Below the pieces are notes generated by a model that was not told where the DNA came from, ran no database searches, and saw only the letters and a list, made by a program, of their open reading frames with translations. A DNA stretch of 60,526 nt, filler included, from Platydemus manokwari (taxonomy: Eukaryota), in the NCBI GenBank assembly GCA_037951405.1. It is 5 parts of 5 records of this genome, joined end to end, with 100 filler letters (N's around TTAATTAATTAA, not from the genome) between each part and the next. Parts side by side here need not be neighbours in the genome. Positions count along the whole stretch, not along the records: positions 28,478 to 38,614 come from JBBMOY011164769.1; positions 38,715 to 49,294 come from JBBMOY011122329.1; 3 more parts are not named here. The stretch is one strand, 5' to 3'. Below are positions 7,641 through 57,474 of the stretch, in pieces (position 1 is the stretch's first letter; each line of letters begins with the position of its first letter). The position numbers and the translations under genes are program-made.

Positions 7641-7729
7641 TTTTTTGAATTTTTGGCTGTCCCTGGAAATCAAGAAGAACTTGATGTGGGCTTAAAAATT
7701 TCAAAATTCTGTGAGGACATTTATAATGA

Positions 7730-9729: not shown

Positions 9730-9981
9730 TATTAGGCTGAGTCAAAAGTTATTCATGTTTTTTAGTTGTTTAAAGTTTTTGTTTTACCAAATCATTTAAA
9801 CATANNNNNNNNNNNNNNNNNNNNNNNNNNNNNNNNNNNNNNNNNNNNTTAATTAATTAANNNNNNNNNNNNNNNNNNNNNNNNNNNNNNNNNNNNNNNN
9901 NNNNAACTTATTTTTTAAGCGAGTTATAGTCTTTTAAAGTTGCTGTTAGATAACGGCCATTATTTTTGCACCAACCTAATA
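9730..9981. mobile_element. Mariner-type element ends flanking an assembly gap
   Basis: TATTAGGCTGAGTCAAAAG at 9730 and TTTTGCACCAACCTAATA ending at 9981 (reverse complement of the mariner TIR TATTAGGTTGGTGCAAAA). It cuts the Gypsy RT; the interior is lost in the N-gap. Confidence 0.55.
9805..9904. other. Assembly gap with artificial TTAATTAATTAA spacer (also 28378-28477, 38615-38714, 49295-49394; plain gap 53887-54141)
   Basis: The same 100-nt block of Ns around TTAATTAATTAA occurs four times. Confidence 0.97.
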
Positions 9982-25900: not shown

Positions 25901-28900
25901 TCAAGATTAAATTAATTATAAGATCAAATAATAAGATGATTGTAAAAGAAACAATAAATTAATAGAATACATAAAGGAATAGAATGTTAAATTTAAAAGA
26001 ATTTCATTTTTAATACTTAAAATAACAATAATTATCTTATGATGAGAAGTGAAAAAAAATAATGGTTTATTATTATTAGAAAAAGAATTAATTAGATAAG
26101 AAAAAACATAGGAAAAGCTAGACTGTCGACCAATATATAAACAAATACCAAGCTACATAAATTCAGAAACTAAAAATTGAGCATAAAACCTCGATCAACT
26201 AGTTTGCTGATGAAATCAAAATTAGTCTGTCAATTTCTGAAATGCAATACAGAAGAAATCACAGAATTTTAATCAATGCTTTCTAGCATTAATTAAATTT
26301 AAATTTAATTCAAAACAATTTTTAATTCACATTTAATTGAAATTTAATTCAAATTTTATAAAAATATATATTAACTTAAAATTAGATTTATTTGTTTAAA
26401 TATATGTATATAAATAGATTTTTTATGTCTTGACTTTTCATTTCGTTTTTAATGTGTGGTTTTTTAAAATAGTAGCCGCTAACAAACGTCTCAGATGTTC
26501 ATAATTTTAAAATCAATCAAAGTATTCTTAAAATCACACAAGGCCAATAATATGGTGGACAAGTGGCATACTTTTCACAGAGGAATTGAATGATCTCTAT
26601 ACACCTGCATATAATATACTGTAAATATTTGTAGTAGTTTGGAATAAAAATATTCGGTGATAAAAATGTTTTTGTTGTATTACAAGATAAGATAAGATGG
26701 AATCTTCAAATAAAATAGGATGCAAAAGATCAATCATGATTTTACTGAGACTGTGCGCATTCATGCTTTCGCTTGTAAAAGAAGTCATTATTAAGATTTC
26801 CTAAATATTTATTTAATTCCAACAAATATTACAATTTTTAATAAAATTAAAATTCTTTTTCTAGAGAGATTTCATTATCAATTTTAATTAGGTATAGATA
26901 AAATATATAAATAATTTAATAATTATTTCATATTAAATATTCCAAAATAAATTTTTGTTGCGTTTTGTGCTTGCTTATTTATTTTTTATTCATCTTATCA
27001 GTCTCAAAATTAATTTATTGTTGATCACTGTTGTCTTAATCAGTGCACTTGTGGTCCTGATCGAGCCCTATGTACGAACTATTGAACCTATTTGTTTATT
27101 TCTTCGCCTCGCGTTTAATATTGTATGACGACAATATCAAACTGCAACAATGATCAATGGGTATTAAAAAAAACTATAATGATTTCAAAAGCTATCAGTC
27201 TCAAATCAAATTAATAACAAACACTTGAGTTTTATAAAACGTTTATTGACACCAAAATTACAACTAACACCAATTATAAATTACCACAATAGCCAAATGG
27301 TTAAATAAAATATACAATTATACGAAAATTTCTATCAAGCCTCAGGATAAGTTACAAGGTTAATAAACTGCATGCTCTAGCAGCAAAAACACTTTCAAGG
27401 ACATGCGACAAAACTCTACAATAGGAGATTTACACGAAGTCTATATTAACGATCAGTTTTTTATATAAGATCAGAACGTGTAAATGTTATTATTAATATA
27501 ATTATTTTTATTCTTTTCAACTAAATTATCCGAAAGCTTGATTAACAATTTTAATTAAAAATAAAATAAAATACAATGCTTGATTTATCAAGCTTAACAA
27601 TAAAATTGCTACAACTATATCTGCTTGAACTATCAAGCCAAAATTGATACATTGTATTAAAAGATAAAAACTGTTACAGTCAAGTCATGCACAATAAATG
27701 TTTTTTGATCAGTCAAATGAGACAATTTAGTCACAATTGAATTGATGAAATTGTTAATATTTGGATGAGACTTGGTTAGTAAAATTTTGCTATTATTTTG
27801 TTGAATCCCCAACATTTTAAATTGTAATTAAAAAATTTTTATTAAAATTTTCATTTAAAAATATTATTTAAAATTATTATTATTTAATTGGAATTCTCCT
27901 CACATTCATAACATAATAAATAAAAATATTCCTAACAATCATGTAATATTCATACGAGATTGTGTAAATATTTCAATAAATTTACTTTAAGAATTCAAAA
28001 AAATACGAAATCTAAATTATTTAAGAATTGAATATCAACATAGATTATCGATTTCAGATCTCTAAATGAGAACAAGGTATATAGTTAATTTAATTAAAGA
28101 ATGAATGAATGAACATTATCTTGTCAATTGCTGTTACAATTCTGTCACATACATTTATGGGTATATCTTGTCCGGGTGACATTCGATAATATTAAATGAC
28201 AATAAAATGCTAAATTACAGCAATAGAATAAATTTAATGTTAGTAAATGGAATTATAAAGGGTTTTATATTTTGAAAAGATTGGTGAAATCAACAATAAC
28301 GCCACTAAATTTAAGAATGAGAAAATAATCAACGAGAACAATAGTTTTATTAGAATCGTTTTGAAAATTATGCTGAGNNNNNNNNNNNNNNNNNNNNNNN
28401 NNNNNNNNNNNNNNNNNNNNNTTAATTAATTAANNNNNNNNNNNNNNNNNNNNNNNNNNNNNNNNNNNNNNNNNNNNAAAAATAAGCAGTGATATTATTA
28501 AATATATCTGTAATTAACTAACCAGATTTATAATAATAAAAATTTAAATTTAAAAACTCAAATAATGATTAGAATAGGAACTTGGTTTTAAAACTATGTT
28601 AGACATCTTTAAAGAGATATTAACTGAATTATACGAATATATCAAACATAGTAGTTATAAATAAAATTAAGTTATAAAATTATCTCATGCGCGAAAATTC
28701 ATTGTAAAGAAAGTAAGTTAAAGTACCCTTTTTCTTAACTTAAGCCAATATATTTAATGAAATTATGCTTGCTGCTGTTATTTTATAAAAAAACGAATCT
28801 AAGAACTTTAAATCATAAAAATATATTTAATCGATTTATTCAAATGAATTATGTATATCAATTATTCAATAAACGAATTAATTCATTATCAATGTATTAA

Positions 28901-30972: not shown

Positions 30973-33058
30973 TTACAAAAAATGCTTGTTTAACTGTTCT
31001 GTTTTTGTAGTTATTTGATCATTACATATTTGAAATTGTTGAGAATAAAACATGGCCCATTTGGATAATCTATCAAATTCATTTTCTAGTTCAAGGATGT
31101 CTTCATTAGATATACGGATATTATTATTATCTGTATTTTTGATAATTTCATCTTTTGATTTTTGATTATCGATGTCAACATTGGCTGTCTGATAAATACG
31201 ATTTTCAATTAATTTGTATAAATCTGAATTGAAACTTCCAGTGATTTCAGGCAATTGAGAAATATCATAATCAACTGTTCTAGATTTAAATGATTTAAAT
31301 ATATCATAAAAATCATTTTGTTTATGATTTTTTGTTGAGAAATTTTCAACGATTTCTGATATTGATTTAAATTTAATGTAATCGTTTTCTTTGTATTTAT
31401 TATATATTTTAAAACCTTCGTGTAAAATGTTGGATTTATCAGCTTTATTTAATTTCTTAACTATAACATTGTCAACTTGGGCATTAATTAGATTTTCAAG
31501 TAAATCACATGGAATTTCACCTAAACAAAATGTAAAACAATGATATATGAATTATTTAAAATACTAGGTAATTGATATAAATCTATGCAACATTTTTCTT
31601 TTATATCATTCAATAAATGCCACTCTTCTTTTGTAACAATACTAATTACAGCACCATGAGAACCTATTTTAAATAAATTAATTATAAAATAGGCAAGTAA
31701 ACAACCATATCTTCCGGCCCGGCCCATTCTATGTAAATATGTTTCAAAATCCCATGGCAATCCGAGATTTATCACCAGATTGACATTTTCAGCATCAATA
31801 CCCCTTGAAGTCTAACATTATATTAAAACGTGATAGCAATTCAAATGTGACATTTATTATTCACCGGATTTAATAATTCATAAACATAAGCTCACCAAGT
31901 CTGTCGTAATTAGTACTCTACAGTGGAAACTTTTTAACTTGTTATATATGCCAATTCGCTGCTTTTGATCCAAACTCCCTGATATATAAGCACTTGACCA
32001 ACCTTTCGAATCTAAGATATCGCATAAATCTTGTGCTCTATTTTAAAATAATTATTCATAATACATAATGTATAAATTACATAGATTGATAATTTGAAAA
32101 CACAATACACTGTTGAAAGTCAACAGATGACAAAATTTCCAAAAGAACTTCTGTTTTCGAGAAAAATATTTCTCTAGGTGATAAATCTTCACAAATAAGC
32201 TTATAATAATGCGTTATTCCAAGTAATGTAGCCTTTTCGTTTTTATTAAGACGAATCATAACTGGTGAGTTCATATAGGTTATTATAGTGTCAATCATTA
32301 CATCTGTATAAGTTGCTGAAAGAGTAAGCATTTGTTTGTTCATAGGCAAAGCATTATAAATATAACTAAATAGATATTAGAATGATTTCCAAATTCAAAT
32401 ATTACTTCATCGTATTTTGAAAATTATCAGTAAAAAGCATATCTGCTTCATCTAGAATTAATAATCTGATCGAATCAGTTTGAATATGATTTTCTTCGAT
32501 TAAATACTTTATTCGGCCTACAATTTATATAATTCTCTTTCAATAAATGTACATTTACCTGGAGTTCCTACTATAATGTGGCAATGTTTGATTTTTTTCA
32601 AATCTTCATGAACCTTAATACCTAACACAAACTTTAATTGACAAATTATTAAAATTATTACCGCCTATAAATAATTGACAATTAAGATTTTCAAGAAAGC
32701 AACCGATTGATTGTATAACATTTAAACTTTGGAAAGCAATTTCTCGAGTTGGTGATACAATTAATACTTGAGCAACTTTGCTGGGTATGTGAATGCATTC
32801 TAAAGCTATTACTGAAAAAACACAAGTCTTTCCTGTTCCAGATTTAGCTTGAATAATTAAATCTAAGCCAAGCAAGCCCATTGGTATTGCCTTTACTTGA
32901 ATAGGTGAAGGATAATTAAAACCATTAAACAAAAGTCCTTTAAGAACATTATCTTTTAAATTAAGTTGAGTAAATAAAATGTTTTCTTCGGATAAAACAT
33001 CTTCAGTCCTCTTTCTTTTTTTATTAAATTCAATATCACCTTTATTTATATTAACCAT
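30973..33058 (-). CDS. DDX20: DEAD-box RNA helicase DDX20/Gemin3
   Basis: Q-motif [52 protein letters not shown] and [10 protein letters not shown]. Introns at 32622-32661, 32518-32558, 32366-32405, 32038-32080 and 31812-31895 plus two more; long last exon 30973-31520. The [13 protein letters not shown] and [12 protein letters not shown] strings are DDX20-like. Confidence 0.9.
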
Positions 33059-33599
33059 AAAAACAAATTTTCTAAAACTTAATGAAAAGTTGAACTATAA
33101 AGCATAAAATTTGCATTATTTAAACAAGATATAAAACAAAATTGCACGCTAAATTTTTTGTTTTTAAAAATGTTGCTTTTAAAATGCAATAAGGTATAAC
33201 AAACTTTTTAAAATTTTATTAACATTAAAAAATTTTTTACAAAAATGTTTCAACACCCATTAATCAGTTTCATTATAACTAATTTTACGTTAAAAATTCA
33301 TAAATACTTATAAATAAATACCTTTTAATTTCTATTATATCTTATAACTATATTGTTTCAATATATTATAACATCCTAAGATAATCATACATGTCCTGTT
33401 TAACATTTCCTAGTTGTATTAATGGAATTAACTTAGTGGCTCTATATTTTTACAATTACAACATTATACAAAACTTTAAGTTACAACTATTTCATTTCAA
33501 CAAAATGATACTCGATAACAAACATTAACCATTAAATTATGTAAAAACCATATTCTAAGTCAATTTATAAGAATATAATTTTAGACTAAATGCCGAAAA

Positions 33600-34762
33600 T
33601 TAATTTGAATTTTCCGAATCACTTCTGCTTCTTGAAAGATTTCTTTCTTCGAAAGAATGATCTTTCGATAAACTTCTTTCACGATTTCCTTGTACAGATT
33701 CTTCCTTTTCACTTTTCTCTTTCTTCACAGAAGAATGACTGTCATTTGAGTGAACACTATACCCTCTCGACTTGCTTTTATCTCGTGATGTAGAATGTTT
33801 TCTTCTTGAGCTGCTCCTACTTTCCTCCTTTGAAGGACTTTTTCTTAAAGGTGAACGACACCAATTATTTCCGTTTTTCAAAGGACTGTTTGATCTTCTA
33901 ACACTTTTGCTTCGACTTCTGGAACTTCCTGTTTTAACTTTTTTCTTAAAATAATAATAAATTAGTATTATTGAAAATTAAAAATTACAGCTGGACTTTT
34001 TGATCTCGATGAACTGCGTCTACTTTCATATGATTTACTTCTCGATGATGATCGACGAGATGATCGTCTTCGGCTACTGGTTGAGCGACGAGTTGATCTT
34101 TTCCTACCTTTACGGTAGGACGTGGATCTGCTTGAATGGGATCTTGACCTAGTTTTGGTCCTTCCTCTTACACTATCTTCATATACACGTAACTTTCGCC
34201 CACTGATTTCATATCCATCAAATTTTTTAAGAGCAGCTTTCATATCAGCCCGAGTTTTAAATTCAACTATTCTATATGTTCAAATAAATGAAATAATAAA
34301 AATAAAAACATTTAACCCTTCGTTTTGTCTTCTTTTGTGAGCATCTGCAAACATAACCTCCCCAGTTTTCCTCATTAAATCTTTTAAATCTTGCCAGCTA
34401 ACTCTAGATGGCAAATTTTCTACTAACAATCTATAATCAGTTCTAATGGGAGCATTACCGGCAAATCTCCTGCTGCTACAATACATATAAGGAAATAAAT
34501 CTTACAAAAAAATTAACCTATCAAATCGACGAGGACTTCTTCGACCAGATCTAGCATGTTCCAAAACAACTCGACCTCCTGCCAATTCTTTGTGGTGTAA
34601 ATCATGAATCGCATCATCGGCATCTCTTTCATTATCGAATTCAACAAATCCATAACCACTTTTCAATCTAATATCTTTAATCCTTCCATAACCTTTGAAA
34701 AACCTTTCAACATCTCTTTCACTTGCTCTATCAGATAATCTTCCAATAAAAACCCTTGCCAT
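33600..34762 (-). CDS. SR splicing factor, SRSF4/5/6 (B52/SRp55) family
   Basis: RRM1 ([16 protein letters not shown]), pseudo-RRM2 with SWQDLKD, and an RS domain. Exons 34518-34762, 34317-~34475, 33989-34271 and 33600-33944. Confidence 0.93.
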
Positions 34763-35599
34763 AGTTTAAAAACTCTAACATGTATAAAATAAAATATTTA
34801 ATAGCAAAAATTTACAAAATGCCTACTTTTTAAAATTAATTATTAATAAAACAAAATAGTAAAAATTTATAGTTTTTTAAAACAAATTAATACCTGATAG
34901 TTGTTTTTTCATAATATAATAAAGTATTAAATTCATAAATGTGAGTATAGAGAAATAAAGAAATTTTCAATTGGAGTTTGTTATAATTTCATAAATTTTT
35001 GTAGATATAAAAGATTTGAAAATTTGCTAAGTACATTATTTATAAATAATATTGTTTTACAATTCTAATAACATAAAGTCATAGTCAGAATATATAATTA
35101 ACTTTATTGGAATTATTAAATAGTATTATGTGAAAAAAAGTTAACAAATAGTTTTGTCTTTACTACAAATGATTGATTTGACGTTGGGCCTGACTGTACA
35201 TGTTGTGAATTAGTGTAGTTTGAAAATATAATACGGTTGATGGACTGAGAATATGTTGATTAAGAATTATTATTGATCCTAAACTCAATAGATTTATGAA
35301 TTAACAATAAGATTAGCCATTTATTTTTATCAATATCACACCAAGTAGTAATTATTGTTTTATTTTGATAAAAAAAATATAGTTTTTTGTAACATGTTGT
35401 TATCGTTGTAAGTATGAAAAAAACAAATTCAAATAATAAACATAATGAATATTTTAAAAATAATCACAATAAAATAAAACACCTATAAATTTAAAAAAAT
35501 ATTACTTAAGCTAGATGAAAACACTACCTAGAACAAAAATCACAATCGCTTAAATGAAAAACTATTAAAGGCATGATTTGCTTCGCTCATTTTTTCGAT

Positions 35600-38480: not shown

Positions 38481-41255
38481 CAATTTGAAATATAATTTTT
38501 AAAAATCGGTTCAGAAGAAAATTCTAATAAAAATAATATATTAAAAATGATTGAGAATAAATTCCAAATTTGAAATTTAACTATCAATACTATTCCAGCC
38601 CTTGAAATATATGANNNNNNNNNNNNNNNNNNNNNNNNNNNNNNNNNNNNNNNNNNNNTTAATTAATTAANNNNNNNNNNNNNNNNNNNNNNNNNNNNNN
38701 NNNNNNNNNNNNNNTTTATTATAATTATTATTCTTATTACTTTTATTATAGTTAACAGTAGTATCGACATGGAAAATAAAATAATGGATTTTATCAAGTT
38801 AATTCTTTTCCACCAGCTTAATAAATGAAAACCAACATTGTGTAAATGAATTATTTGACTAACAAATAAATCTGATCATCATTGCAATTTATGATATCAT
38901 AACTTGATAATAATTATTTTAATTGGTTATGTAAACAAATTTTAAAATAAATAAACAACAACTGAGCAATAATATTTGCTTTATTTACACTGGGAATTAC
39001 ATTTGTTACTGCTATTCGTACGTATGCGATTTTATTTAATTCTGGCTCACAAATTGTGATAATTATCAATGAATTAAACTATAATTTGACATTACGTAAC
39101 AGGTTATTTATTAATCGATTGTTTTATTATATCAAATAATAAATTGAAAACAAAATTGATTTATTATTTTTCAAGAAACAAAACATAGTGACGGTTATTT
39201 TGATGTTGTGCGATGATCTATTTGATTATACATAAATTTCAAATGGGTTGGAATACCCCCACCTCCCTTGATTGTATTACAGATTCGAAACTATTCTCAA
39301 TTTAATTTTATGAATACATAATTTTCAATGATTTTATTGTTTAATTTTTATTGGTTTTCATTTGACTTATTTCAATTTATCGTTATAAAACAGTAATAAT
39401 ATACGATTTTTGTTATCAATTATTTCCATACTAATAGACAGACCAACCATCATAATGGATAATATTATGTTTTAAAAATTATCTAATATACAAGCCTTAT
39501 AATATTATGTAACATATTTAATATTAATGTAAGCCACTACTCTTTCATAGAATGTGCCTTTCAAATTTTGATTTAATCTAATGATTTAAACAAATAAATT
39601 GATAATTTATATCTTTAAGGTATAATATTTTAAATTTGAATTTATCTAATAGCCCTCGGAATAGTTTGATAATTCCAATAAGCATTTCGCGAATCAGTTT
39701 TATAGTTTGCTTTATTCCACGTCATATGATCAGACCGATAATCAAAGATTTAGTAATTCGTTTATTGGTGGATTTCTCCACATAGTCATTTCACTCACAT
39801 CTGATATGACCTATCAATTGACTGTGATCAGCTTTTAAAATTGGATTTTAAATTTATATTAGCTCACTACTCACACATATTTCTGATTAAGATTTTCATT
39901 TAAACGTTATCTAGTTTTGCTCTTCCGTACTTTTCTCAGTTTTTGTATTTCAATTTACACACAACCGTCTCATTATTGTTATGTGACATCTTCATAATAA
40001 TAATTGGAATTTATAGGAAATACAATAAGATAAACAAATTAAACACGCCATTCGGTACCATAAAACGTTTCGAGTTATTTTCTCATTATAATGACAGAAT
40101 TTACACTCTATTATCTATTCAGACATCTTTATCATTTATTGAATTCTTAAAATTGATGAATGGAAGATTTTGAAAATATTTTAAAATTGTTTATCGTTGT
40201 GATCGGATAAACAAATTATCAAACGGTTTAGAAAATCACAGTACTTATTTTCACGATGAAAACTGATTCCAGTGTATAAACAATTCGAGAAATATGCAAT
40301 GAATTGGAGTGATTATGTAATTATATTTTCCAATACAATGTATTTATCACCATGTAAAATATATTTTGTTGATTTTATATTAATATGAGCTTCATTGTAA
40401 AATTTACTGCAGCTATGACTGATAGTTGGTTAGCAATAATAATAGGTAATAATAATTACATTATTTATTTTTATTTTTGCTTATGGAAACATAAGGAAGC
40501 ATTATTATATTCTTAGACAGACATTCAAATTAATATTTTCAAATATAAATAGAGAGAAATTAAAGTTTAATTCAATAGCATCTTGTACTACATAATAAGT
40601 AGTAGGAAATATTGTTTCCCCATAGCGTTAATATATGGATAATGGTTACTATATGGATTTAATGAATTAACAGTTCGAGTTCAAGGAAAGATATTCGAAG
40701 ACTTTCAATTCATTTTTGATTTTTATTAAATTTTCTTTTCCTATCATATCAATCGCATTATAAAATTAAATCCTATTCAATGATAAAAATACTTACAATC
40801 CATTGATGAGGAAGGGTAATTGTAATCGAAACATTCAAACCTTTTTAAGCCACATCAAATAAGATTGAAATACACACATGAAAAATTGTGGCTTATTTTT
40901 GTAAATAATATGAAAATAAAAAATGTTTATAGCATAATTTAAGTGAAGAATTAGAGATCGTGAATCATGGATAAGGTTTTTATTTGATGAATACTGAATA
41001 TCAGAAGAATACCTAATGGATCATAGAATTGGAAAATCAATAGGAAAATATTGAATGAAAAAATACTTAAAGCTATCTGGCACCAACTCAAATGAATCTT
41101 ATAATAAATTATTAGCAGCTAAAAAAGGAGGAAATAATAATTTTTATAATTCAAAAAATTGTATTTTAATAAAATTGCATAAGTTATGGTATATAACCAA
41201 AGATAGAAAATACAAAATAATTAAAAAGTATTATTATTAAGTTCTATTTTAGAAA

Positions 41256-42430
41256 ATGGTATCAAAATTAGATGCAAATCATTATTAATTTAAAGATGAA
41301 ATTAAAAAAGAAGATTCATATATTATTAACCCACCATCAACCACAGCAACAAATTAAAATAAAGCCACTGATATTAATTTCGAATCTCAACAAACTTCAA
41401 ATCCTGAATATATTTGTAATAGTTTTGTAAGGTATGAAATTAGAATTCAAATAACAGACAAAAAATGCTGCTGGTGTAGAAGAAAATCATACTATGACTT
41501 TAGAAAATAATTTTTTCACAATTTATTTCACCTCCATGAGATTAACATTAAAACATATGAAATTGAAACTCATGTAAGTTTTGGAGAAACATCTAGTATG
41601 TTACATTTTATATTACTAGATCAATCTGATGATAGAACTGGAAAGTTGGCATCATGGATTCCAGATAAAACTAATGAAGATCAATATAAAGACAATAAGG
41701 GATTCAAAAGAAGAAAGGCCTTTTATAATTTAAAAGTAAGTTTGGATTTTTACATATTTAGATTTTAAGAAAACTATCATAGACCGTTATTTTTGACGAT
41801 GATTAAATTAACCTTAAACAGAAATATGGATGATAAAAAAATATTTTAAGGAACAAAAGGTAAAGGAAAATTAACTATCAAATCATTAGAATTTTGTATG
41901 CCCAAATTATTGAATTATTGCAAAGAATTCAAACTGATAAACCAATTCAAGTTATTTATTTAAATATGCTTTCAAATCTAATTTATATTTCAGAGTAACA
42001 CATCTTGGTCTATTCTTTAATACATGACAATTAGCTTTATTAAAGAATAGACCAAGATGCATTATAATTGGTTTTAAAGTTCCTGAAATTAGCTTTACCA
42101 AAAATAATTTAAAATTCATTCAAAATATTGGAAATGATAAATATATATAATCATTAAAATTTAGATTGAATAGCAGTAACTACCCAGCTAATAAAATGCA
42201 ATTTGAAATCACAACAAATAATCAAAAAATACCCTCAATTGAATATGTTAGATTTTCAAAATTTATACTCAATATTTTGTTTTGATGTTAAATCTCAAGA
42301 TGAAAAATTAATAATTAGAAGAAAAATCTGTTGAATTATTAATATGTTTACAGTAAAAACACAAGACTGAAAGCTGATTTCATTTTTCGTAAACTTATTT
42401 TATAACCCAATTTTATTGATTCACAATGAT
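41256..42430 (+). pseudogene. Polinton major capsid protein (double jelly-roll), decayed
   Basis: DEIKKEDSYIINP...DINFE...NSFVRYEI, TLENNFF, RPRCIIIGF, LNSSNYP and YSIFCFDVKSQDEKL occur in the order of Maverick/adintovirus MCP motifs. Confidence 0.8.
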
Positions 42431-43020
42431 TGATGAAAAACATTCAAAACAAATAATAAAAACTGTAAAACCTAAATCATTTTACTACGAGGGAAAAACA
42501 TAAAAATATCTAAAGAAATTATTAACAAATTAAAACAAATATTAGACACCGAAAGCTGAAGTCCAAACACAAAGGAGACTATAAGAAACAAAAATCTGGT
42601 GGAGTTTTTCTGTTATCAGCTGCAATACCCGCAAATCATAGCAGGTTTAAGTGGAGCTGCAGGAATTGGTAGGAAAGTTGCAACCGCGGTAAATCAAGCA
42701 AAACAAGCTAAGAAAGTTGACGCGGAGACTTAGAAAGTGAAGAAAAAATAAGCGCAACTAAAAACAAAAGGTGACTTGAAACAAAAAAACGAAGTTACTA
42801 AAGGAACCAGCCTTTATTTAACTCCTTAAAAAGGCAGAGTTATATTTGATTTCGTACAAAATACTAGATATGTAAAGATATCATTTTTAAAACGGATTAA
42901 AGGTGAAGGACTTTATTTATCAACATCAGACTTTGTCTGACCTTCAGGCATATGAACAATAGGAATACAAAAACTCATAAATAATAAAAGTGATAATTTA
43001 AATTGGATGAAAAATTGAGT
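42430..43020 (+). pseudogene. Polinton core/protease-substrate protein, decayed
   Basis: KSGGVFLLSAAIPA..IAGLSGAAGIGRKVATAVNQAK, followed by repeated G.GLYL-type motifs (KGTSLYLTP, KGEGLYLST), as in adintovirus-like core proteins. Confidence 0.65.
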
Positions 43021-43046
43021 GAATTAATAAATATTATTTCTAAATA

Positions 43047-43765
43047 ATATAGCACAGTAATAATATCTAGTAGTAAAGATTCTAAATGGAAATTTGGTTT
43101 TCCAATACCTTTAAAGTTAGATAAAAGATTTGAATATGAAATTGGTTTAATGTCTATAAGTGTTTCTAATTCTGTATATTATATTGATGATAGTAATAAT
43201 TCATTTGAATATGAAAAAAAATTATATAAAATTCCACCAGGTGTTATAGAAATTCCGGATATAAATGAAGGTCTACAAAATGTTGTTGGTAGGTACAAAA
43301 TTAATGGAAAAACACAGGTTGATCCTAATAATAACCCAATATATAATGTTAAAATGGAACCTGATAATGCCACTTTAAAATGTAGACTAATTACAAATGG
43401 TCATAAAAAATATTACTTGAGGTTCTGTTTTAGTATTTGAAAATAATAAAATATATCAATCTGGAACCCATTTTTCAGAAAATACAATAAATATATCTGA
43501 GCTTACGTTAATAAATGTCGAATGTTCAATAGCTGATGGTAGTTATATAGCACAATTTACGAATACGCATAAATAAAATCGAATATTATTTATAATTTTA
43601 CAGCCAATAGATTTGGCCCCGGTTATTTAATAAAGAAGTAAAACAAGTAATATATTTTCCAATATTTACTAAACTTGTTAGTGAAATTACCTTTAATAGA
43701 TTTAATAAATTTTGGTGTAGAAGAAATATCTTTGAAACTTCATCTCAAACTGGTTTATTTTATTT
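43047..43765 (+). pseudogene. Polinton minor capsid protein (penton), decayed
   Basis: FPIPLKLDKRFEYEIGL...SNS...NNSF...IPPGVIEIPDIN, SENTINI...INVECSIADGSY, APGYLI, IYFPI and LINFGVEEISLKLHLK. Confidence 0.85.
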
Positions 43766-43892
43766 TTCGTCTTAAATTAGTTTAAAGTAGGAATGGAATT
43801 CAGCTTCTCAAACAAGTTTTTATTCTATTACTTTTTTATTTTTTAAAATGGATGCAGGAGATTAAATTAATTTAATTATTTTCCAACTAAGT

Positions 43893-44270
43893 ATGGTATT
43901 AATGAAACTTCTAATTTTGATTTAATGGATATTTCTAATGATTTACACTAATATGTTGAAATTATTATGAGAGATGAATTAAAGAATTTTACTTATAAAA
44001 ATATATAATAATGAATTTGGAAACTACAAAAGAAAAGGATTCTCGTTGGGTTTCGATAAGTAAACCTCATAAAATTTATTTTGATCCCTATGGAATTTTA
44101 CCAACTAGAGAAGTTTATAATTTTTTTGCCTATGCTGGAGACCAGACAAAATCCTAATCCGATTTTGTTTTTTATAAAATTCAAATAGAAACAGAGGGGT
44201 AATTATGCGGACAATTATCTATGTATTATTATTAGATAAATTACTTGAAGAATTTGATAAACCATTTGAA
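43893..44270 (+). pseudogene. Adenain-type cysteine protease, decayed
   Basis: IMNLETTKEKDSRWVS (consensus IINLD...GTHWV), IYFDPYGILP and IQ...LCG. Confidence 0.75.
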
Positions 44271-44831
44271 ATTATTTTATATATTGGTAATATATTTCCA
44301 CATATACCATCAAAGAGTAATCTGTTGGAAACTATACTGATTAATATTCTGATATCTAATGAAGAAAAAATTGAAATCAAAAATCTAATTTCAGAAAATT
44401 ATCACGACATGCTGTATTATTAAATTTCATATTTAACTTCCGAAAATGGATGATCAAAAACTTTTTCCCGCTTTGATAATTTTAGTAATCCTAGTGCTCC
44501 ACCAGACTCTTAGAATATGAGTCCATCTTATGTGGGTTATAAAAATGATACATTAAAGTGAATATTAAGTGAATTTTATGAATGAAAAAAGGGCTTTAGA
44601 AGAATTATTAGGTCATAATATTAAGTTTTAAAAAATGGGCAAAAGTTGATTGTGGATTAAAGTGGTTTATTTTAACATCTGGTGTAATTTTAGATGTATT
44701 ACTATCTATTTTACCAATTATTTCGGGTTTGGAATTTTAGCAACAATTGATTTATATTGTGGTGCAAGAGTTGCTTTATTTTACAATCTAATATTGGGGA
44801 ATCATTTCATAGTGAGTTACTCTATTATTTT

Positions 44832-45667
44832 CTAAATATAAAAGTTTAATATCTTGAAGATGTTCTTCTTTTTTGAAATAAAGATTGGGAATAATTTGTA
44901 ATTCTTTCTTTTATTTCCATTTCCTTTAATTCCATAAACATTTATTTTGAAATTATTGTTCCTCTCAAATATTTTAATTTCATTTATGGATGTTGGAAAT
45001 GATATTCCTTCAAGATTTAATTTATCAAAATGTTTTTTATAATGCCTTGCTCTTTTTGAACATCTATGTTCTTCTATCATATATTAATGTGCTAGCATAG
45101 AATATAGAAACTTTTTTATCATAGTTTCTTACATTTCCTATGTTATTAGACAGAAATGGAAGAGGTGAAAATTTTGCTTCCTGATAAAACATTTACCTTT
45201 GAAATATTTACAGTTATATTTCTTAATTCAAATATATTTCACCCACTTCCTTTATTCCTCATTAAATCATTATCTAATTGTTCGGGAAAATCTTTAATTA
45301 TTTCCATTAGGTCTTCTCCCCTAATATTCTTCAATCCAATTTAAAATATTTGATATGTAAATAATTTTTTTGTTGCATATTCAAGTTCTTCAGTATTTGG
45401 ATTTATTTTTTGTAATAACATTTTGATCATTATTTGGAGTTTATGATTTGATTATTTATTAAGAAATCTTAATATTTCATTAAACTCTTCTGAAATATAG
45501 GAAATTATATTTTTGATTGGTTGAGATTTTATATTAATTTTATGGGTTTTGTAAATATCGTCCATAGTTGATGAAGACGAAGCTCCATCAATTTTAATAT
45601 TGTTATTGATCTTATTATTGTTATCGATCGTATTATTGTTATTAATAGAAGGGTTAAATTTCGCCAT
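44832..45667 (-). pseudogene. N-terminal region of Polinton protein-primed DNA polymerase B, truncated
   Basis: KGSGWKIFELRNITVNISKVNVLSGS, FLYSMLA and LNLEGISFPTSINEIKIFERNNNFKINVYGI are typical of the pPolB N-terminal region; no catalytic core follows. Confidence 0.85.
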
Positions 45668-46099
45668 ATGTTTTAATGATTTATTATGGGCTTTTAGACA
45701 CTGAATTGTATCAAACGTTGTATCGAAAATTTGGCATTTATTTATTTTTTATTGTTATTATTCTCCGAATGTTCATTTTTCAATCAGATAAAATCGAATA
45801 TAATAGATATTTTTTCGTTACTATTTTTACTTCTTTGTTATTCGATCTATTTCGTTTCTTTTCGATAAGATAAAATTTAACTTATTTCATAAGTCGTATT
45901 TTTATTATTATTACTGTAGTTATTATTACTATTATCATTATTATTATATTTATCAATGTCGTTTTTATTCTTACTGTCAATTATACTTTTGTTTTTGCTA
46001 ATCTTGTTTAATATTATTCTACCGTCTATTTTCGTTTTACCAGTTATTATATCTGTCAATAATTTATCACCCAACACTCATCATTGTGTCTGTTACGAA

Positions 46100-47390
46100 T
46101 AAGTGGTTTAACTCTAATCATTATGTCTTTTCATGGTAATCTTACCTTCCAGTTTACAAGGATAAAGTTAAACAATTCACAAAATAATTGTTATCAATTC
46201 CGACACAACTATCAAAATTCAAATAAGCGAATAACAAGTAATAAAAATAAGACAGCAAATATTGTCAAAAATCAAATCACGGCAACAATCGACTCACTAA
46301 TTGTTATTTTTCTAATATCAATTTTGGATTTGTGGAATCAACTGATTGGAATTAAAGTCGAAGATGGAACTGGTTTTGTTGAATTATTGGATTGTGCTGA
46401 ATTTGGGTTTTGCGAAAAATGGTTGAAGATTTGTTGAAGATTTGATCATCAGATATTTGATGAAGAGAAATTGCTTTTTTGAAAAAGGTTTGAAAGAAGA
46501 ATAGTTTCGAAGAGGGTTTGAATATTTGAATATTTGAGGAATTTTGAGGATTTGAACATTTGGATGTTAAATTTGGTTTGAGAATTAGAAAATGTTTGAT
46601 GATGAGGGTTTCGAGTGGAGTGTCAAAAAGACACGTCTCCGAATTTCGGACATCCTGATTTCAAGGGCCTACACTTTCTCTTTCAAATTGTGACCTATTA
46701 TAATATGCACTTTGATCTCTTCTATATCAGATTGGCCTCTTAGTTCGTAGTTACCTAGTCCATTCTATTCCACAAAATATTCTCTTATTCCGGCTTTCGG
46801 AAATTAATTCTATCCATGTGGGATAGTGTTTTCCATAATAGTCTACTCCTAATTTGGAATTCAAAAATATGATATTCTTCATCTCCTCCTTGAGCAACAG
46901 ATTCCTTTTTATGACGGATAAATGTATTCTTGCTGCTTTGAATGACAGCTCAATGGTCTCTCGGGCACGTCTATAATCCTTTTGAATTATTCAGGAAGGA
47001 GTTGTTCCACTGGCAGGTCTGAGGTACTAATTACTGCCTGCGTGCGGCTTCTCAGGGATGACATTCCAATTTTGCTTCTCCTTATAGACTGAACTCTTGT
47101 TTAATTCAATTTTGCTTCCAAAACAATATTTACATGTCACTCGAAAATGAGAAATATTTTGTTTTGTTCAGTTGCTATTTCAAATGATTCTTTTAAAATT
47201 TCATTCATGTTTTTCTCTGGCTTTATTTCAAATTGCTTGTATCACCTTCAATTTATTAATTTCTTGGAAAGTCGAGTAATATGTCATTATCTACTTACTT
47301 AAATACTCAAACACCAAATATTATTTTCATATTTTATTTTCAAATGTACAATAATTTTTAATATTCAATTCAGTCACCATATGAGTTTTA
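46100..47390 (-). mobile_element. Possible decayed gag-like retroelement segment
   Basis: PBS-like TGGTGAC on - at ~47373-47379, followed by broken frames with an S/N/P/Q-rich low-complexity tail. Confidence 0.25.
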
Positions 47391-49689
47391 TTATATTGAT
47401 ATTGGTATAATATTTCATTCGTTCAGCCAAGGAAAATTATTATCAAAAATGTAACACAATCCAAAAATTACTATTAATATTAGTAAATAGTTTGGTACCT
47501 TTGACAATATCAATGTGAATCTATACAGTGTTCATGTTAATATGTATGGAGTCTATTGCCATTTATGAAAGATTGTGGAAAAGATGTGAGAAACACAAAA
47601 GCATCAAAAAATGAGAATTTTCATAATAGAACTGGGTCGAGAAATCTATCTTCTCAATCAATTCACCGTGCTTCTAGATATAATTCCAAGGGTTCATTGA
47701 GAGAAAAATGTTTAAGATTGTCGGGGTTGTATTATTATAATAATAAGTTCAAATTTCAAAAGCACAATTTGTAAAAAGATAGAGATTAATATCTAAATAT
47801 ATTCAGAAGGATTTTTAGCGCTAAATAGATTCCCAAATATGGTCAACCTAGATCTTCAACTTATCTGGAATCCAAACAGATAAGAGATTGTTGTTGCTTA
47901 ATCACTCGGGTTATGTAGTAAAAATAATATTTAAAATATAAATGATAATAAAATATAATAAACAATGCAAAATAAGCCAAAATAAAATGTATTGATCGAC
48001 AATTGAAACTCTGATAACAACAAATTTAAATACCAAAGGCGTCGTACACTATGCTTAGGTAAGTCTCTCGTGACACAAATTGAAAGTGTGGAACTGTTAA
48101 GTAGAACCTAAATTATTTTAATAGACCTCAAGACTAAGACTAGCAGGGAGTCGCAAATTAATTGAGCAGTTAAAAAATATACTTCGAATCTTAATAATCT
48201 TCGAATTAAAATTGGTATACAAAAATATCTTCAAAATGGTAAAATCTGCGGATCGAGATTAACATACATTTAAAAAATAGATAGGTTTGGAATTGAGCTT
48301 GCGAAAATTCGTACAATTTTGTAAATGTGATTGGACTTGTTGCTATTTTTGGTAACATTCTATACTTAGTACCATATGTTGCTAAGTGCAGCATATGTTC
48401 AGCATAGGTTACTATTTTTAGTCCAAGTGACTATTTATAGCAACTAGTGTTGTTATTTATAATTTCCCTCCATCGGGGTTTTTATTTTTAGATTTCAATG
48501 CGGATTTTCCTTATGACCTTAATGTCAATTAGTTTTGATGCAATAAAACAAATTTAAAAATTTTATGAATATTTTGTAATTTCTGGCATTAAAATTTTAT
48601 TAATTTGAGACTTAATTTTAAAAATTTTTTATATCAATTTATTTTTATTTTTAGTTTAATTTGGTTGGGTCAAAATGGCCTGGTTAGTTCCCAACAACAT
48701 GCCGAATATAGATAATAGCTTTTCACGTCCTAAATTGATAAAGGATAAAATAACTGTATTCGAGATTGTTAACGAATAAAAATACAAATCAAGCAATAAG
48801 AAATTCAGGACTATTAAAACACAATTGAGTATAACCAAATTTAAATAAGATAATGATCTCGATATAATACCACTATTTACAGCCACGATAAAACTATGAA
48901 CAAAATTTAGTGATTAAATCGAAAACACTAGCGTAAATGCTGAAATGTTAAAATGGACTAAATTTCTAGCACCAAATTGTAAAAATCTTTTACGAAGAAT
49001 ATTTTGATTTCTGGAATTTAATGATTCTTGCTCAATTATTTTGAGTAGCCACTTATTATCTCTTATAAGTATTAACTATAGCATCAAATAATTAAATAAT
49101 AGTAGTTGTAATAATAACTTCAGTCACTTTTATTTATTTATTTCCTATATCCGTCCAGCAAATATTTTGCAGTTATCTACTTAAGAGGCGCATTTATTCT
49201 CTTTTCACTGTTACGATTTCTTATTTCAAAATTAATTTTATTAAGCAGTGATTAATCATCTTGATCAATATAGCACAAATTGAAAAATAATGGTNNNNNN
49301 NNNNNNNNNNNNNNNNNNNNNNNNNNNNNNNNNNNNNNTTAATTAATTAANNNNNNNNNNNNNNNNNNNNNNNNNNNNNNNNNNNNNNNNNNNNACAATA
49401 AAAAGAAGCAATAAGTAATAATGCCATGATGATTGATACCCGTTTATAAAATAAATGTAAATATTTACATATAGAAGTAAACGCAGAAACTTAAAAATAA
49501 TATTTTAAAACCGAATATTTAAATTAAATAATTTTAAATGATGTGAATATACTTTAGGAAATAATTTAAACGTTCAATTAATGGTAAAATATTTTTTAAA
49601 TAATTAAGTAATGCATAATACAAATAATTAACGTTGTTATACTGCATTAAAGTGTTTTATTTTAAGTTTTACTTTCACTTCCTAATTTT

Positions 49690-49782: not shown

Positions 49783-50193
49783 ATGGCTTGGGCTTCATGG
49801 GACGCAAATTTAGATAGCTATATGGCTTCGAACTTTACTGAGTGCAACAATATAACAATTGCTGCAATGAATGGTGCTCTATGCACTTCAAGAAGCAAAG
49901 ATAAAGGGCCAGTACCAGATGCCAACGAAATTGCTGCTTTGGTTAAATATCTTACATCCAAGCAAGGATCTTCTCTTACTTATGGTGGGAACAAATTGAT
50001 GTTTACTCGTGAAATTGAAGATTCTATTTTGATTTTCAATCTTATCGGAGCAAACAAGGGAGCTCTAGCTATTAGTAAGACAGCTAGTAATAACTTTGTA
50101 ATTTTTGCTTGTGGAGCTGGGCCTGACAAGAATTCTCAAGCTGTTGGTGTTAATGCCGTCAAATGTGTTGAGTTTTTGAATAAATCATTATAA
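49783..50193 (+). CDS. Profilin (divergent, intronless CDS)
   Basis: 136-aa ORF with N-terminal Trp helix (MAWASWD), IAAMNG, LTYGGNKLMF, GALAISKT and a C-terminal helix VEFLNK; size and motif order fit profilin. Confidence 0.85.
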   Translation: MAWASWDANLDSYMASNFTECNNITIAAMNGALCTSRSKDKGPVPDANEIAALVKYLTSKQGSSLTYGGNKLMFTREIEDSILIFNLIGANKGALAISKTASNNFVIFACGAGPDKNSQAVGVNAVKCVEFLNKSL

Positions 50194-53100: not shown

Positions 53101-54491
53101 AGTAATTTTTCGCATATGACGACTGGTGGTGTCCTTATCGACCAATAAAATGACCAACGAATATTTGGTAGACAGCTTATTTCTGCATTTTTATTATCAA
53201 CTCTAAATAATCTCGTCAACTATTGTTGTACATGTGAAATATAATCGAAATTTGAAAATCTATTAATAAAAATCTACAATAATTTTCCGGACAATAAGAC
53301 CGGCACACAAATCACCAACCATATTTCGTTCAAGAACCAGGTCCATACTTTGAATAATTTAAGTGGACGGTCGACACAAATCTAGTATGCGATTTAATAA
53401 CAATTGATGGTTTGAAATAAATACAATGAAATCTGTTTTGCAAAATATTTATCAAATTTTACTGTTGGTAAACTAGCTGAATAACAATTGATATTGTTCT
53501 CGATTTTCCTTTTGAATATATCAAATGATTTCTAATTCGTATCCAATGACAGCCAACACTTATTTATAACTTTTGTCGTGATTTTCAAACGATTATGAAA
53601 TTCGCAATTTAAAATGAAATATATCTTTCTATCAAATTATTATATGTTCCACATTGGAAAGGTAAAATCATCAAAACGTGCGATAAATTTCCAAAATATT
53701 TCATCAGAAAATTTTATAATATAAATTATAATTAAAATATTACTTCTATAAATTATTTCTCGTGTTATGAAAAGGTTTTTATTGCTATTGTGGAACTATG
53801 TGGATGGATTTAGTAATGTTGAAAGGTTGAATTTTAATGAAGCTGACTATTTTCTAATAAAACAACTTAAATAGCTGAACACTAANNNNNNNNNNNNNNN
53901 NNNNNNNNNNNNNNNNNNNNNNNNNNNNNNNNNNNNNNNNNNNNNNNNNNNNNNNNNNNNNNNNNNNNNNNNNNNNNNNNNNNNNNNNNNNNNNNNNNNN
54001 NNNNNNNNNNNNNNNNNNNNNNNNNNNNNNNNNNNNNNNNNNNNNNNNNNNNNNNNNNNNNNNNNNNNNNNNNNNNNNNNNNNNNNNNNNNNNNNNNNNN
54101 NNNNNNNNNNNNNNNNNNNNNNNNNNNNNNNNNNNNNNNNNGGTGATAATATCCTCTATCATATGGCCAGATTTCGGAAGTGGCATAAATTGCATGAGTC
54201 ACGAATTGATGAAGGCACACATACACAATTTGTATCTACCAACCGAATAGTGTACATTATCGAAACACCAATGGTTCATAGATGCAATGTCTAACGATGA
54301 TATCGATGGTACATTGTGCCAGATGGGAAATGCACACGTGCACACATACAAAATTCAATTACAGATAATGTCCCACAACAATTACGTTTCATTAGACAAT
54401 AAATTAGCCAATGAGATCGATCTGTTACGTATTGGAGTAACTGAAAGCTAAACCTAACAATTGCAATTTTCCAAATCAGAAATATCGTAAG

Positions 54492-56024
54492 ATGCTTTCG
54501 AATAAATTATTACGATTAAATTTGTTGTGGATTTTATTATTAACGGATTTCCATGTGGACTGTTGGTCAGCTAACATATCAATTAAGGAAGAATTCCAGC
54601 CCAATCAGGTCATAGGAAATATCAAAATGGCCCTCCGTGAAAAGGTAAAAGTATCTCGTTTACAGTTTACGTCTGATAGCGAATTCCTGCATGTCAAAGA
54701 CAATGGTGATGTCACATTGAAGAAAAAGATTGACCTTGAAACTCTTTGCCAAACGTCAAAGATCTGTTGTGGTCAATCAGTTTGTTATATCCAAACCAAT
54801 GTACTCGTAAGCGAAAACAATGACTTTCTGGGTTCTTTAAATTTGAATGTGAAAATCGACGATTTAAACGATAATGTTCCTCGCTTTCCAACAAATGAAC
54901 CCATAATAGCTTTAAGTGAATCGCTTCCCATAAATTCTTCTATTTCACTTGAGTCGGCCGTTGACAATGACTTTTCAATAGAAAATAGAATTTCTTATTA
55001 CAAACTTGAGGATTCGTCAAACAAATTTGAACTGGACTCATCGAAGTTTCCTCAGATTGGTTTAAGATTGAAATCCGGACTAGATTATGAGACAAGAAGG
55101 CAATATCCATTGGTATTGAAGGCCTGCGATAAGGATACGTGCACAGAGAAGAGTCTTACTATTGAGGTGAGAGACGAAAATGATAACAAACCTCAGTTCA
55201 GTCAGAAGTTATATCGCATTTCTATATTAGAGAATACTGAAACAGGAAGTTTGGTATTAACGGTAAATGCTTTCGATTCCGATTCAGGTGAACTTGGCCG
55301 AGTAACATATGGGATCGAAGCTCCTCTGGATCCCGATCTTTTACAGACTTTTGGTATTGATTCTCGATCAGGACAAATTCGATTGGAACGACGTTTGGCT
55401 ACAAACTTTCGTAAATTATATTCATTCCACGTTGTTGCTAGAGACAATGATAATAATAATCCTCAGAAAGATAAAGTTCCTGTGGAAATAAGCATTGTAG
55501 ATATCAATAACTATTATCCAACAATAACAGTATTAGCCAACAATGAACGAGTGGAAATCCGTGAGAATGCACCTGCAGGGAATCTGTGCACAATAAAGGT
55601 GACTGATAGTGATATCGGGATAAATTCCAAAGTATCTTGTCGGCTACTGCCGGATTCTTTAAGTGACTTTCAATTACTGAAAAAGTCAGAAAGCCTATAT
55701 TCGCTGGCTTCTATACGATCTTTCGATTTTGAAAGCGGCCAGATGAAAAGTGCAGGCATAAGCTGTAGCGATTCGGGTCAACCACCCAAGACAACCGATC
55801 GAGTTATATTGGTTCATATTACCGATGTCAACGAGTATGAGCCGACTTTCGTTCAGCCCATTTACGAAGTCAGTCTCAAAGAAAATTCAGCGACCAACAA
55901 AATATTTCTTCGAATAAATGCCACAGACAAAGATGGTGCCGCTCTGATTCGTTACAGCATCGATAAGAAAGGATCGAAATACTTCAAAATCGAACCCGTT
56001 TTGGGTTGGATTAAAACTACCAAT
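54492..56024 (+). CDS. Protocadherin, large first coding exon (signal peptide, about 4.5 cadherin repeats)
   Basis: Signal peptide; IDLETLC and Cys-rich EC1; DLNDNVPRF, LDYE, DENDNKPQF, AFDSDSG, DINNYYP and DVNEYEPTF. Donor AAT|GTAAGT at 56024/56025; no downstream exon recognised in the window. Confidence 0.93.
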
Positions 56025-57474
56025 GTAAGTTGTTTTAATTTGTAATTTTCCTCTATCGATTCCATAAAAACTGTGAAAATAATCGATAATCAATAAAATA
56101 ATCAATTCTCAAAACAATTTATTTATTTATATCGGACAAAATGTGGAATAAGAAAATATAAAATCAATACACGAAATAATTATCGAAGCGAGATTGATGA
56201 ATTAATTTTGTTTAAATCGGGTAGCCTTGAAATGTGATTGCTGCAGTCACAGAATCATTCATCATCCATCTGAGAAATGAATCAAACAACAGGAACGAAC
56301 ATACGAACGTTTAAGAATCCCTTATTAGTATGAACTAATTTGATTTACTAAAAAGTTTCCCCTAATTTTTCTAAGACTTTTTCTGTCGAACAATTTAATT
56401 TTCTCAGCTCTTTATTAATATGAATCTTTTCTGTCGACTTTCTCTCTTATTCAATTTCGTATGAGTCGTCCTTTATTCTGTTCCATTAAAGATTGTTTTC
56501 TTTATCGAGTAAGATTTTAATTAATGAGACTCACTTTTCAAAGGATAATTGAAAAAGATGATGATTTGGTAAAAGGAGAAAGGAGATTGTATTTAATTAC
56601 TTGAATCGAATCATGAATTGAACGCATGTGGCTGAAGAATGCCGAAACACGAGGATAAATATGTGATATTTGATATCTGTGTAATAGATTTTTCCTTTCA
56701 CAAGTTGCTGATCATATCAAAAAAATCGATCGGTATATTGGAGAATGTATCGATCGGTTACCACAAGATACGTTTTATCCATTACAGACTCAGTGAATTG
56801 GAATGTTGTGTTATGATTTGCCACTCCTGTTATCCAAGAACGAGCACCACGTAGACCACAAATATTCACGTCCATGCCTCTCTCGATTTTGTTTGGAAAT
56901 GCAAATACCGAATATCATTTTATATTTCGTGTGACAAGCAGAACAGATTGATTTCTTAAATACAATCCCCATTCATTTAGGAATGCCATTAGAATTTTCT
57001 TTCATTCAATCGACTGACTTACATGATATTCTTCTGAAAATATTATCTAATAAAATATCGATTTAAAATTTGATGGGGAAAAACATTAACCATTAATTCA
57101 ATAAATTTATTGATTTTATAAATTACATGTAATATTACAAAATGGATTTTCTGAAAATTCAATAAAAATTCAAGTAATCCAATCTCGTAATAGATTTTCA
57201 GAAAAATCGATTAACAAATTAATCAGAAAAAATTATCCTTAATCTTTGTCTGTGAAATCTGTGATGCAAACTTTTGCTGTATTCGTAATACATGTAAATG
57301 ACTATCGATTTTATTTCTTTCATTCTGGACAGGCTTTTTATTCATTTTCCGGTTCGAAGTACGCACGAATTTAGACGAATTTCTTTTTCATGTGTATAAT
57401 TTTCATACCGTATTAGCATTGATTTAATTGATTGATAACATGGTTTCATGGCCACATGAATCTGTCGAATAATC

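What the first reader, a model, noticed from the sequence alone, without database searches (positions are those of the whole stretch)
40880..46080. Endogenous Polinton/adintovirus-like virus fossil with most of its virion module
Seen: MCP, core protein, penton and adenain protease tightly packed on +, with the pPolB N-terminus convergent on -; all are frameshifted and almost invisible in the ORF track. Known: this gene set defines Polintons/Mavericks (polintoviruses). Inference: a capsid-encoding DNA virus lineage colonised this germline, and intact relatives may exist elsewhere in the genome.
Basis: partly seen in the sequence, partly recalled or inferred. Interest (0 to 1): 0.7.

Follow-up and report, generated by a model that had tools for sequence, protein, structure and literature searches.

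The report
Decayed Polinton virus capsid gene block
A 5-kb stretch of an animal's DNA holds broken remains of five genes of a Polinton/Maverick-type DNA virus (shell, shell-corner, core, maturation protease and the front end of its polymerase); it is likely a dead, cut-down copy of a repeated family, a kind of viral fossil already well known in animals.

Summary
Profiles from intact metagenomic relatives find, in order, a double-jelly-roll major capsid gene, a protein-X-like core gene, a penton and an adenain-type protease on +, and a convergent pPolB N-terminus on - (134, 40, 29, 45 and 13 bits; shuffles at most 3.8). pPolB is the weakest match. The matched pieces hold 16 stops and 11 frame changes and no intron-sized inserts. 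The packaging ATPase, integrase, terminal repeats and at least 3 kb of polymerase are missing, so this copy is likely dead. In the one run holding it, thousands of related contigs lie on about 41.0-45.8 kb while the flanks look single-copy: a repeated family; intact copies are not shown. Its closest capsids are unnamed environmental sequences (35-42%). Decayed Polintons are common in animals, planarians included; the host is only 'probable flatworm' by an unchecked scan note. The scan noted similar elements in other genomes, none with look-alike DNA. New member of a known kind; strict Polinton/adintovirus membership not shown.

The parts
40968..41240 (+). Broken small reading frame upstream of the capsid gene; unassigned, probably part of the element from about 41005
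   Evidence: 61-codon stop-free piece at 41055-41237; high summed depth from the bin 41005-41305; resemblance to the ORF beside the ATPase in relatives not above shuffles (-2.7 bits)
41257..42400 (+). Double-jelly-roll major capsid gene, pseudogene (5 stops, 5 frame changes in the matched pieces)
   Evidence: (134/49/25/11 bits in collinear pieces)
42427..42960 (+). Core-protein gene with an adenovirus protein X (mu)-like segment, pseudogene (4 stops in the matched piece)
   Evidence: 31% over 125 residues to L006:19-603, E 5e-9; 40.2 bits; relatives match PF05829
43000..43760 (+). Penton (single-jelly-roll minor capsid) gene, pseudogene (1 stop, at least 3 frame changes)
   Evidence: model of intact relative L008 (pLDDT 68.8) matches mavirus, adenovirus and Sputnik pentons and viral minor capsids
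43849..44300 (+). Adenain/Ulp1-clan maturation protease gene, pseudogene (3 stops, 1 frame change; Asp, Gln and Cys positions kept, the catalytic His position substituted)
   Evidence: E 2e-18 to L002 protease
44446..44830 (+). Broken reading frame with one hydrophobic stretch, part of the repeated element; unassigned (GasderminX-like is a recalled guess only)
   Evidence: high summed depth; hydropathy 2.4 over 19 residues; no Pfam or locus match
44835..45750 (-). N-terminal quarter of a protein-primed B-family DNA polymerase gene (region that by position would hold the terminal-protein and vOTU domains); catalytic part absent (3 stops, 2 frame changes in matched pieces)
   Evidence: L002 protein passes PF03175 (41.3 bits, cut-off 25.8); domain order from PMC11161782 passages
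45750..46080 (-). Low-complexity stretch, possibly the start of the polymerase gene; not shown to be part of the repeated element beyond about 45880
   Evidence: summed depth falls to 12-20 in 45878-46093, with repeats skipped there

Best explanation
This stretch holds broken copies of five Polinton-type virus genes and is likely an old, non-working chromosomal copy of a repeated Polinton/Maverick family, cut off on the left and internally deleted at about 44830. Shown: the five gene remnants, their stops and frame changes, the absence of ATPase, integrase, terminal repeats and polymerase catalytic part, and many related contigs in one run. Inferred from what is known of Polintons: the intact ancestor (15-20 kb) would copy its linear DNA by protein priming, insert into chromosomes by a retroviral-type integrase, pack DNA into an icosahedral shell of major capsid plus penton with a basic core protein, and mature it with the protease. 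Inferred for this copy: after insertion into the germ line it lost at least 3.2 kb of polymerase and both ends and has since drifted; it can make no particle and cannot move, and at most would act as a source or target of silencing small RNAs (untested).
For: Five collinear matches far above shuffles. Fold of the penton relative and protease profile hits. 16 stops and 11 frame changes in the 15 matched pieces I chose from the alignments; spans equal to relatives within -32 to +10 codons, so no introns. Relatives jointly carry the rest of the Polinton set: pPolB in L002, rve integrase in L001, L005, L014, A32-type ATPase in L008, L014. In run X1, summed contig depth is 1010-28201 across 41005-45820 against 18-46 on the left flank and 31-148 on the right; of 6113 contigs laid on 39500-48500, 382 are >=99% alike and 4844 under 95% (this count includes a second repeat from 47627); on 44150-46300 alone 807 of 967 are under 95%. 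The L002 pPolB has at least 1414 residues and the match stops near 331, hard against the convergent frame; one 255-base contig fits 44825-44994 and then runs on unlike (record 2; orientation read by me). GC of element and left flank is the same, 0.247 and 0.243.
Against: No integrase, ATPase or terminal repeat on this piece, so integration by its own enzyme is inferred. The piece 38715-49294 lies between two spacer gaps and shows no Pfam-detectable host gene in the flanks scanned, so the link to the animal genes elsewhere in the window rests on the assembly. X1 is one run, may be the source sample, and the tool warns that summed depth is no copy number and includes other organisms. No listed X1 contig bridges either element boundary (tables cut). 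The pPolB match is modest and rests on one relative (1 of 20 shuffles reached 12.5 against 16.8 bits); two scans of viral contigs found no second relative. All 32 strong capsid relatives are unnamed or 'hypothetical' environmental-type records; no named animal Maverick came up.
Confidence: 0.8

Rival explanations
1. The short form is itself the family: a non-autonomous derivative that kept the capsid block, lost polymerase core, ATPase and integrase, and spread with help from a full-size relative before this copy decayed.
For: All parts of the stretch, on both sides of 44830, have many related contigs; no ATPase between core and penton, where relative L008 has one. A scan note reports a non-autonomous Maverick family in another genome (e1-7470081, unchecked).
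Against: One contig of another copy diverges at about 44825 (record 2); summed depth dips to 183-404 around the junction; no terminal repeats flank the piece; gene order varies among relatives (L002, L008, L014), so the ATPase may simply lie elsewhere.
Confidence: 0.08
2. It is the relic of an integrase-less midsize linear DNA virus or Polinton-like virus of a microbial eukaryote (food, symbiont or contaminant), captured by chance or assembled in from another organism.
For: Nearest capsids come from environmental collections; no integrase here; integrase-less relatives exist in hydra and spider data (PMC8502044 text part 3); no host gene found on this piece.
Against: Thousands of diverged related contigs in one run and flanks at the low depth expected of single-copy DNA fit a self-spreading genomic family; the capsid falls in a clade (support 0.88, 31 of 50 rows) with integrase-linked L001 and pPolB-linked L002 (P0043).
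Confidence: 0.08
3. The genes are working, spliced or domesticated genes whose frame changes are short introns, as the host has introns of about 40 bases.
For: Host genes in the window have short introns (read by eye); scan notes report intron-bearing Maverick capsid genes in other genomes (e1-7369141, e1-7368032, unchecked).
Against: Capsid and penton spans are shorter than in relatives; the other three exceed them by 3-10 codons while holding several breaks each; stops fall at conserved aligned positions; the protease has lost its catalytic His, kept in 17 of 18 relatives.
Confidence: 0.02

Closest known systems
Polintons/Mavericks (polintoviruses, class Polintoviricetes), including degraded vertebrate copies (PMC8097293; PMC4028283)
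   Same: Double-jelly-roll capsid (PF21738), penton, adenain-type protease, core-like gene and pPolB; two gene blocks on opposite strands pointing inward, as in vertebrate Mavericks; decay by stops and frameshifts.
   Different: Gene order capsid-core-penton-protease differs from the vertebrate layout; ATPase, integrase, terminal repeats and polymerase core are absent from this copy; capsid has no named close relative in the searches run.
Adintoviruses, Alpha and Beta (PMC8502044)
   Same: Same virion module; a protein-X-like segment; a hydrophobic unassigned frame directly after the protease, where the label GasderminX stands beside Adenain in the Beta map text.
   Different: PolB class cannot be told without the catalytic core; neither PLA2X nor GasderminX was matched by any test; no flatworm name found in the stored, cut supplement (Table S1 not seen).
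Unnamed metagenome elements L001, L002, L008 and proteins P0005, P0006
   Same: Closest sequences: capsid 35-41% over the tested half, 61% to the 112-residue fragment P0005; L002 shares pPolB, protease, penton, capsid; L008 shares capsid, core, penton, protease.
   Different: They have open frames, other gene orders, and no known host; L001 and L005 carry a PLA2 domain with the integrase.
Planarian Polintons/Mavericks (Schmidtea, Dugesia) and Rhabditophora Orthopolintovirales insertions
   Same: Abundant, piRNA-silenced Polintons in low-GC flatworm genomes (passages).

Membership tests
Polinton/Maverick (Polintoviricetes) | [quoted passage not shown] | tested here: met
   (12 of 15 relatives pass PF21738)
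Polinton/Maverick (Polintoviricetes) | Single-jelly-roll penton | tested here: met
   homology to L002/L008; L008 model matches mavirus and adenovirus pentons; shown through the relative, not by folding the window's gene
Polinton/Maverick (Polintoviricetes) | Adenain/Ulp1-clan cysteine protease | tested here: met
   Pfam C5 matches in 7 of 18 relatives, best E 0.0014; inactive in this copy
Polinton/Maverick (Polintoviricetes) | Protein-primed B-family DNA polymerase | tested here: met
   N-terminal remnant only; summed E 1e-10 to one PF03175-positive relative; catalytic part absent
Polinton/Maverick (Polintoviricetes) | Retroviral-type (rve) integrase | tested here: inconclusive
   none on this truncated piece; the rve at 8120-8401 belongs to an LTR remnant on another piece; present in relatives L001, L005, L014
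Polinton/Maverick (Polintoviricetes) | FtsK/A32-type packaging ATPase | tested here: inconclusive
   no match in the window (best -2.0 bits); copy is truncated; present in L008, L014
Polinton/Maverick (Polintoviricetes) | Terminal inverted repeats and 6-base target duplication, 13-25 kb length | tested here: inconclusive
Adintovirus, Alpha or Beta class | OTU-PolB of Alpha or Beta class by catalytic core | not testable with these tools
   core absent from this copy; no named reference sequences were obtained
Adintovirus, Alpha or Beta class | PLA2X (Alpha) or GasderminX/Cupiennin (Beta) accessory genes | tested here: inconclusive
   no PLA2 match in the frames scanned; frame 44446-44830 unassigned
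Polinton-like viruses (Aquintoviricetes) or virophages | Own capsid clades, mostly without pPolB plus rve | not tested
   no named references in the tree; of 32 viral-contig loci found by the protease only L014 matched the capsid profile

The most novel reading that the evidence does not exclude
The very deep, near-identical contigs beside this fossil come from a young or still-replicating polintovirus of this invertebrate, one that makes particles, and whose capsid clade is so far known only from host-less environmental DNA; the fossil would give that clade its first animal host, and a 17-kb contig in the same run may be a whole natural copy.
Probability: 0.15. Interest if true: 0.6.

Novelty: new member of a known kind. 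Interest (0 to 1): 0.27.

Why it matters
Modestly. It adds a divergent Polinton capsid lineage (best full-length relatives about 40% identical, all unnamed) to an invertebrate genome and ties an environmental clade to a likely animal host. Whether animal Mavericks form particles is an open question (PMC8097293 abstract in the listing: particles not observed), but this dead copy does not make it testable; only natural full-length copies of the family could.

Tried and rejected
Pfam on the window's fragments: nothing above cut-off. Word-based homolog searches with the penton: 0 of 91 and 0 of 127 candidates. Viral-contig scans with penton, capsid and pPolB queries: 6 of 7 found nothing; only the protease scan did. 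PDB sequence searches blank or chance for P0004, L002 protease, A3, A1. First penton model unusable (pLDDT 39.8; its fold search had no hit at E<=0.001). Atlas hit for the penton fragment (0.97-0.98, hypothetical/DUF5901) had a low recognition value, lead only. Introns as cause of the frame changes: rejected. Shared TATAA(A/C)C box before capsid and core genes: 2 seen, 2.3 expected, rejected. Upstream frame as the ATPase-neighbour ORF: not above 20 shuffles. Host taxon from the profilin: not in the collection, PDB and Atlas uninformative. No RNA holder listed: no evidence on expression. IQ-TREE timed out; FastTree on about 209 columns, 50 rows, rooted on L014, used instead: hits under 370 residues other than P0005 and three loci with very short capsid pieces (L006, L010, L012) were left out, L002 stands as P0043; the window's deeper placement is weak (0.57-0.66). 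Literature searches; none was aimed at proving absence from print.
Full report
Setting. The window is AT-rich (GC 0.20-0.40 per kb) and carries animal genes: a protocadherin exon, an SR protein, a DEAD-box helicase and a profilin, with introns of roughly 40-45 bases read by eye. Four identical spacers (N-run, TTAATTAATTAA, N-run) split it into pieces; the finding lies on the piece 38715-49294, whose flanks gave no Pfam match. No whole genome is held. An unchecked scan note calls the host a probable flatworm (e1-8642850); my attempts to test this with the profilin were uninformative.

Check of the observation. The longest stop-free piece on the coding strands in 40880-46080 is 130 codons, and Pfam finds nothing above cut-off in 28 fragments or 9 single-frame reads. 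The way in was the capsid: one frame read with X at stops (P0001) hit 33 of 1,835,955,588 proteins at E<=1e-3, 13 at <=1e-10. Of 15 scanned, 12 pass the PF21738 double-jelly-roll cut-off, and they align back to 41253-42310 in three successive frames. Open frames of these loci then identified the other genes. With only the first 345 residues of the L002 pPolB the score is 16.8 bits, with 20 shuffles giving 12.5, 0.9 and less; three collinear pieces sum to E 1e-10.

What the relatives are. L002 has a PF03175 polymerase (41.3 bits), protease, penton and capsid; L008 has capsid, an Adeno_PX-like core gene, A32-type ATPase, penton and protease; L001 and L005 have rve integrase with a PLA2 domain; L014 has capsid, ATPase and integrase. 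The L008 penton, folded on a 9-row alignment (pLDDT 68.8), matches mavirus penton (E 7e-11), adenovirus penton bases and the Sputnik minor capsid, and viral minor capsids including MELD, adomavirus LO5 and adintovirus entries; TM-scores are only 0.3-0.5. The 18-row protease profile hits ASFV S273R (6e-8) and adenovirus proteinase (1e-6) among other clan members; Asp, Gln and Cys are invariant and His is present in 17 of 18 rows.

State of this copy. The 15 matched pieces hold 16 stops and 11 frame changes. Spans are within -32 to +10 codons of the relatives, so short introns do not explain them. The protease's His position is substituted. The polymerase match ends near residue 331 of at least 1414, abutting a convergent broken frame at about 44830, so at least 3.2 kb is missing (inference). 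No ATPase or Polinton integrase is found; the integrase at 8120-8401 sits with RT and RNase H in an LTR remnant on another piece. No terminal repeats.

Other copies. One public run, X1, holds 0.51 of the sampled words; it may be the window's source and is not independent. Summed contig depth is 18-46 left of 41005, 1010-28201 over 41005-45820, 31-148 over 45821-47626. Of 967 contigs on 44150-46300, 64 are >=99% alike and 807 under 95%. Single contigs reach mean word depth 683 against 5-32 for listed flank and near-identical contigs, which suggests a group of near-identical copies or free viral DNA; the tool cannot tell which, and warns that the sum is no copy number. The longest record laid is 17,126 bases; it could not be read. 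One contig fits 44825-44994 and then departs, a hint that the deletion is private.

Placement. A search with the capsid alignment returned 32 proteins among 7298 candidates, none with an informative name, none listed from NCBI or UniRef; the search is word-limited, so this is no proof that named relatives are lacking. On the N-terminal half, the window is 61% identical to the fragment P0005 and 35-41% to the next 13. FastTree joins it with P0005 (0.99) inside a 31-row clade (0.88) that holds L001 and L002. No named reference was available, so Alpha/Beta or PLV class is open.

How it works. Shown: a truncated, multiply broken capsid module of a repeated element. Inferred from the family (PMC4028283 passages; PMC11161782 passages; PMC8502044 section 3.1 and text parts 2-3): protein-primed replication, integrase-driven insertion, a jelly-roll capsid matured by the protease. 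This copy can do none of that. Rivals: a mobile deletion derivative (0.08), a captured or contaminating integrase-less virus (0.08), spliced working genes (0.02).

Comparison and novelty. In vertebrates only 134 Mavericks were intact and 2,166 lacked terminal repeats (PMC8097293 passages and section 7). Polintons are piRNA targets in a planarian (PMC8532177 passages), expanded in Dugesia (10.64898/2025.12.11.693146 passages), and Orthopolintovirales insertions are reported in flatworms (10.1101/2025.04.19.649669 passages). The Starrett supplement was cut when stored; I searched it and read the text of Fig S2; Table S1 and the sequence files were not seen and may list related elements; preprint supplements were closed. 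The label GasderminX for the frame after the protease is recalled and rests on position only. Verdict: a real, well-read fossil; new member of a known kind; works like a Polinton, strict membership open for want of integrase, ATPase and ends. Interest 0.27.

Noticed in passing
window 9805-9904, 28378-28477, 38615-38714, 49295-49394: Four identical 100-base spacers (44 N, TTAATTAATTAA, 44 N) with stops in all frames; pieces on either side may not be neighbours in the genome.
   Followed up: partly
window 6500-9800 (-): Decayed LTR retrotransposon pol: RT, RNase H, integrase in that order (Gypsy-like order); not part of the Polinton piece.
   Followed up: partly
window 47627-48500: A second high-copy repeat (summed depth 1555-15258 in X1); no Pfam match in six frames; unidentified.
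   Followed up: partly
window 41996-42064: A 27-base inverted repeat (93%) inside the capsid gene; the downstream arm matches the conserved coding motif, so the upstream arm may be a template-switch scar.
   Followed up: partly
window 46100-47300 (-): Low-copy (depth 30-150) broken N/Q/S-rich frames right of the element, perhaps another decayed element; no Pfam match.
   Followed up: partly
window 30973-34765 (-), 49783-50193 (+), 54441-56045 (+): Compact host genes: DEAD-box helicase and SR protein with introns of about 40-45 bases, a very divergent profilin, a protocadherin exon.
   Followed up: partly
L001:1535-2353, L005:2-1171: Parvovirus-type PLA2 domain next to or fused with the rve integrase in two relatives.
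   Followed up: no
L017:234-14707: Viral contig with rve integrase, A32 ATPase and protease whose replicase is a primase-polymerase plus helicase, not pPolB.
   Followed up: no
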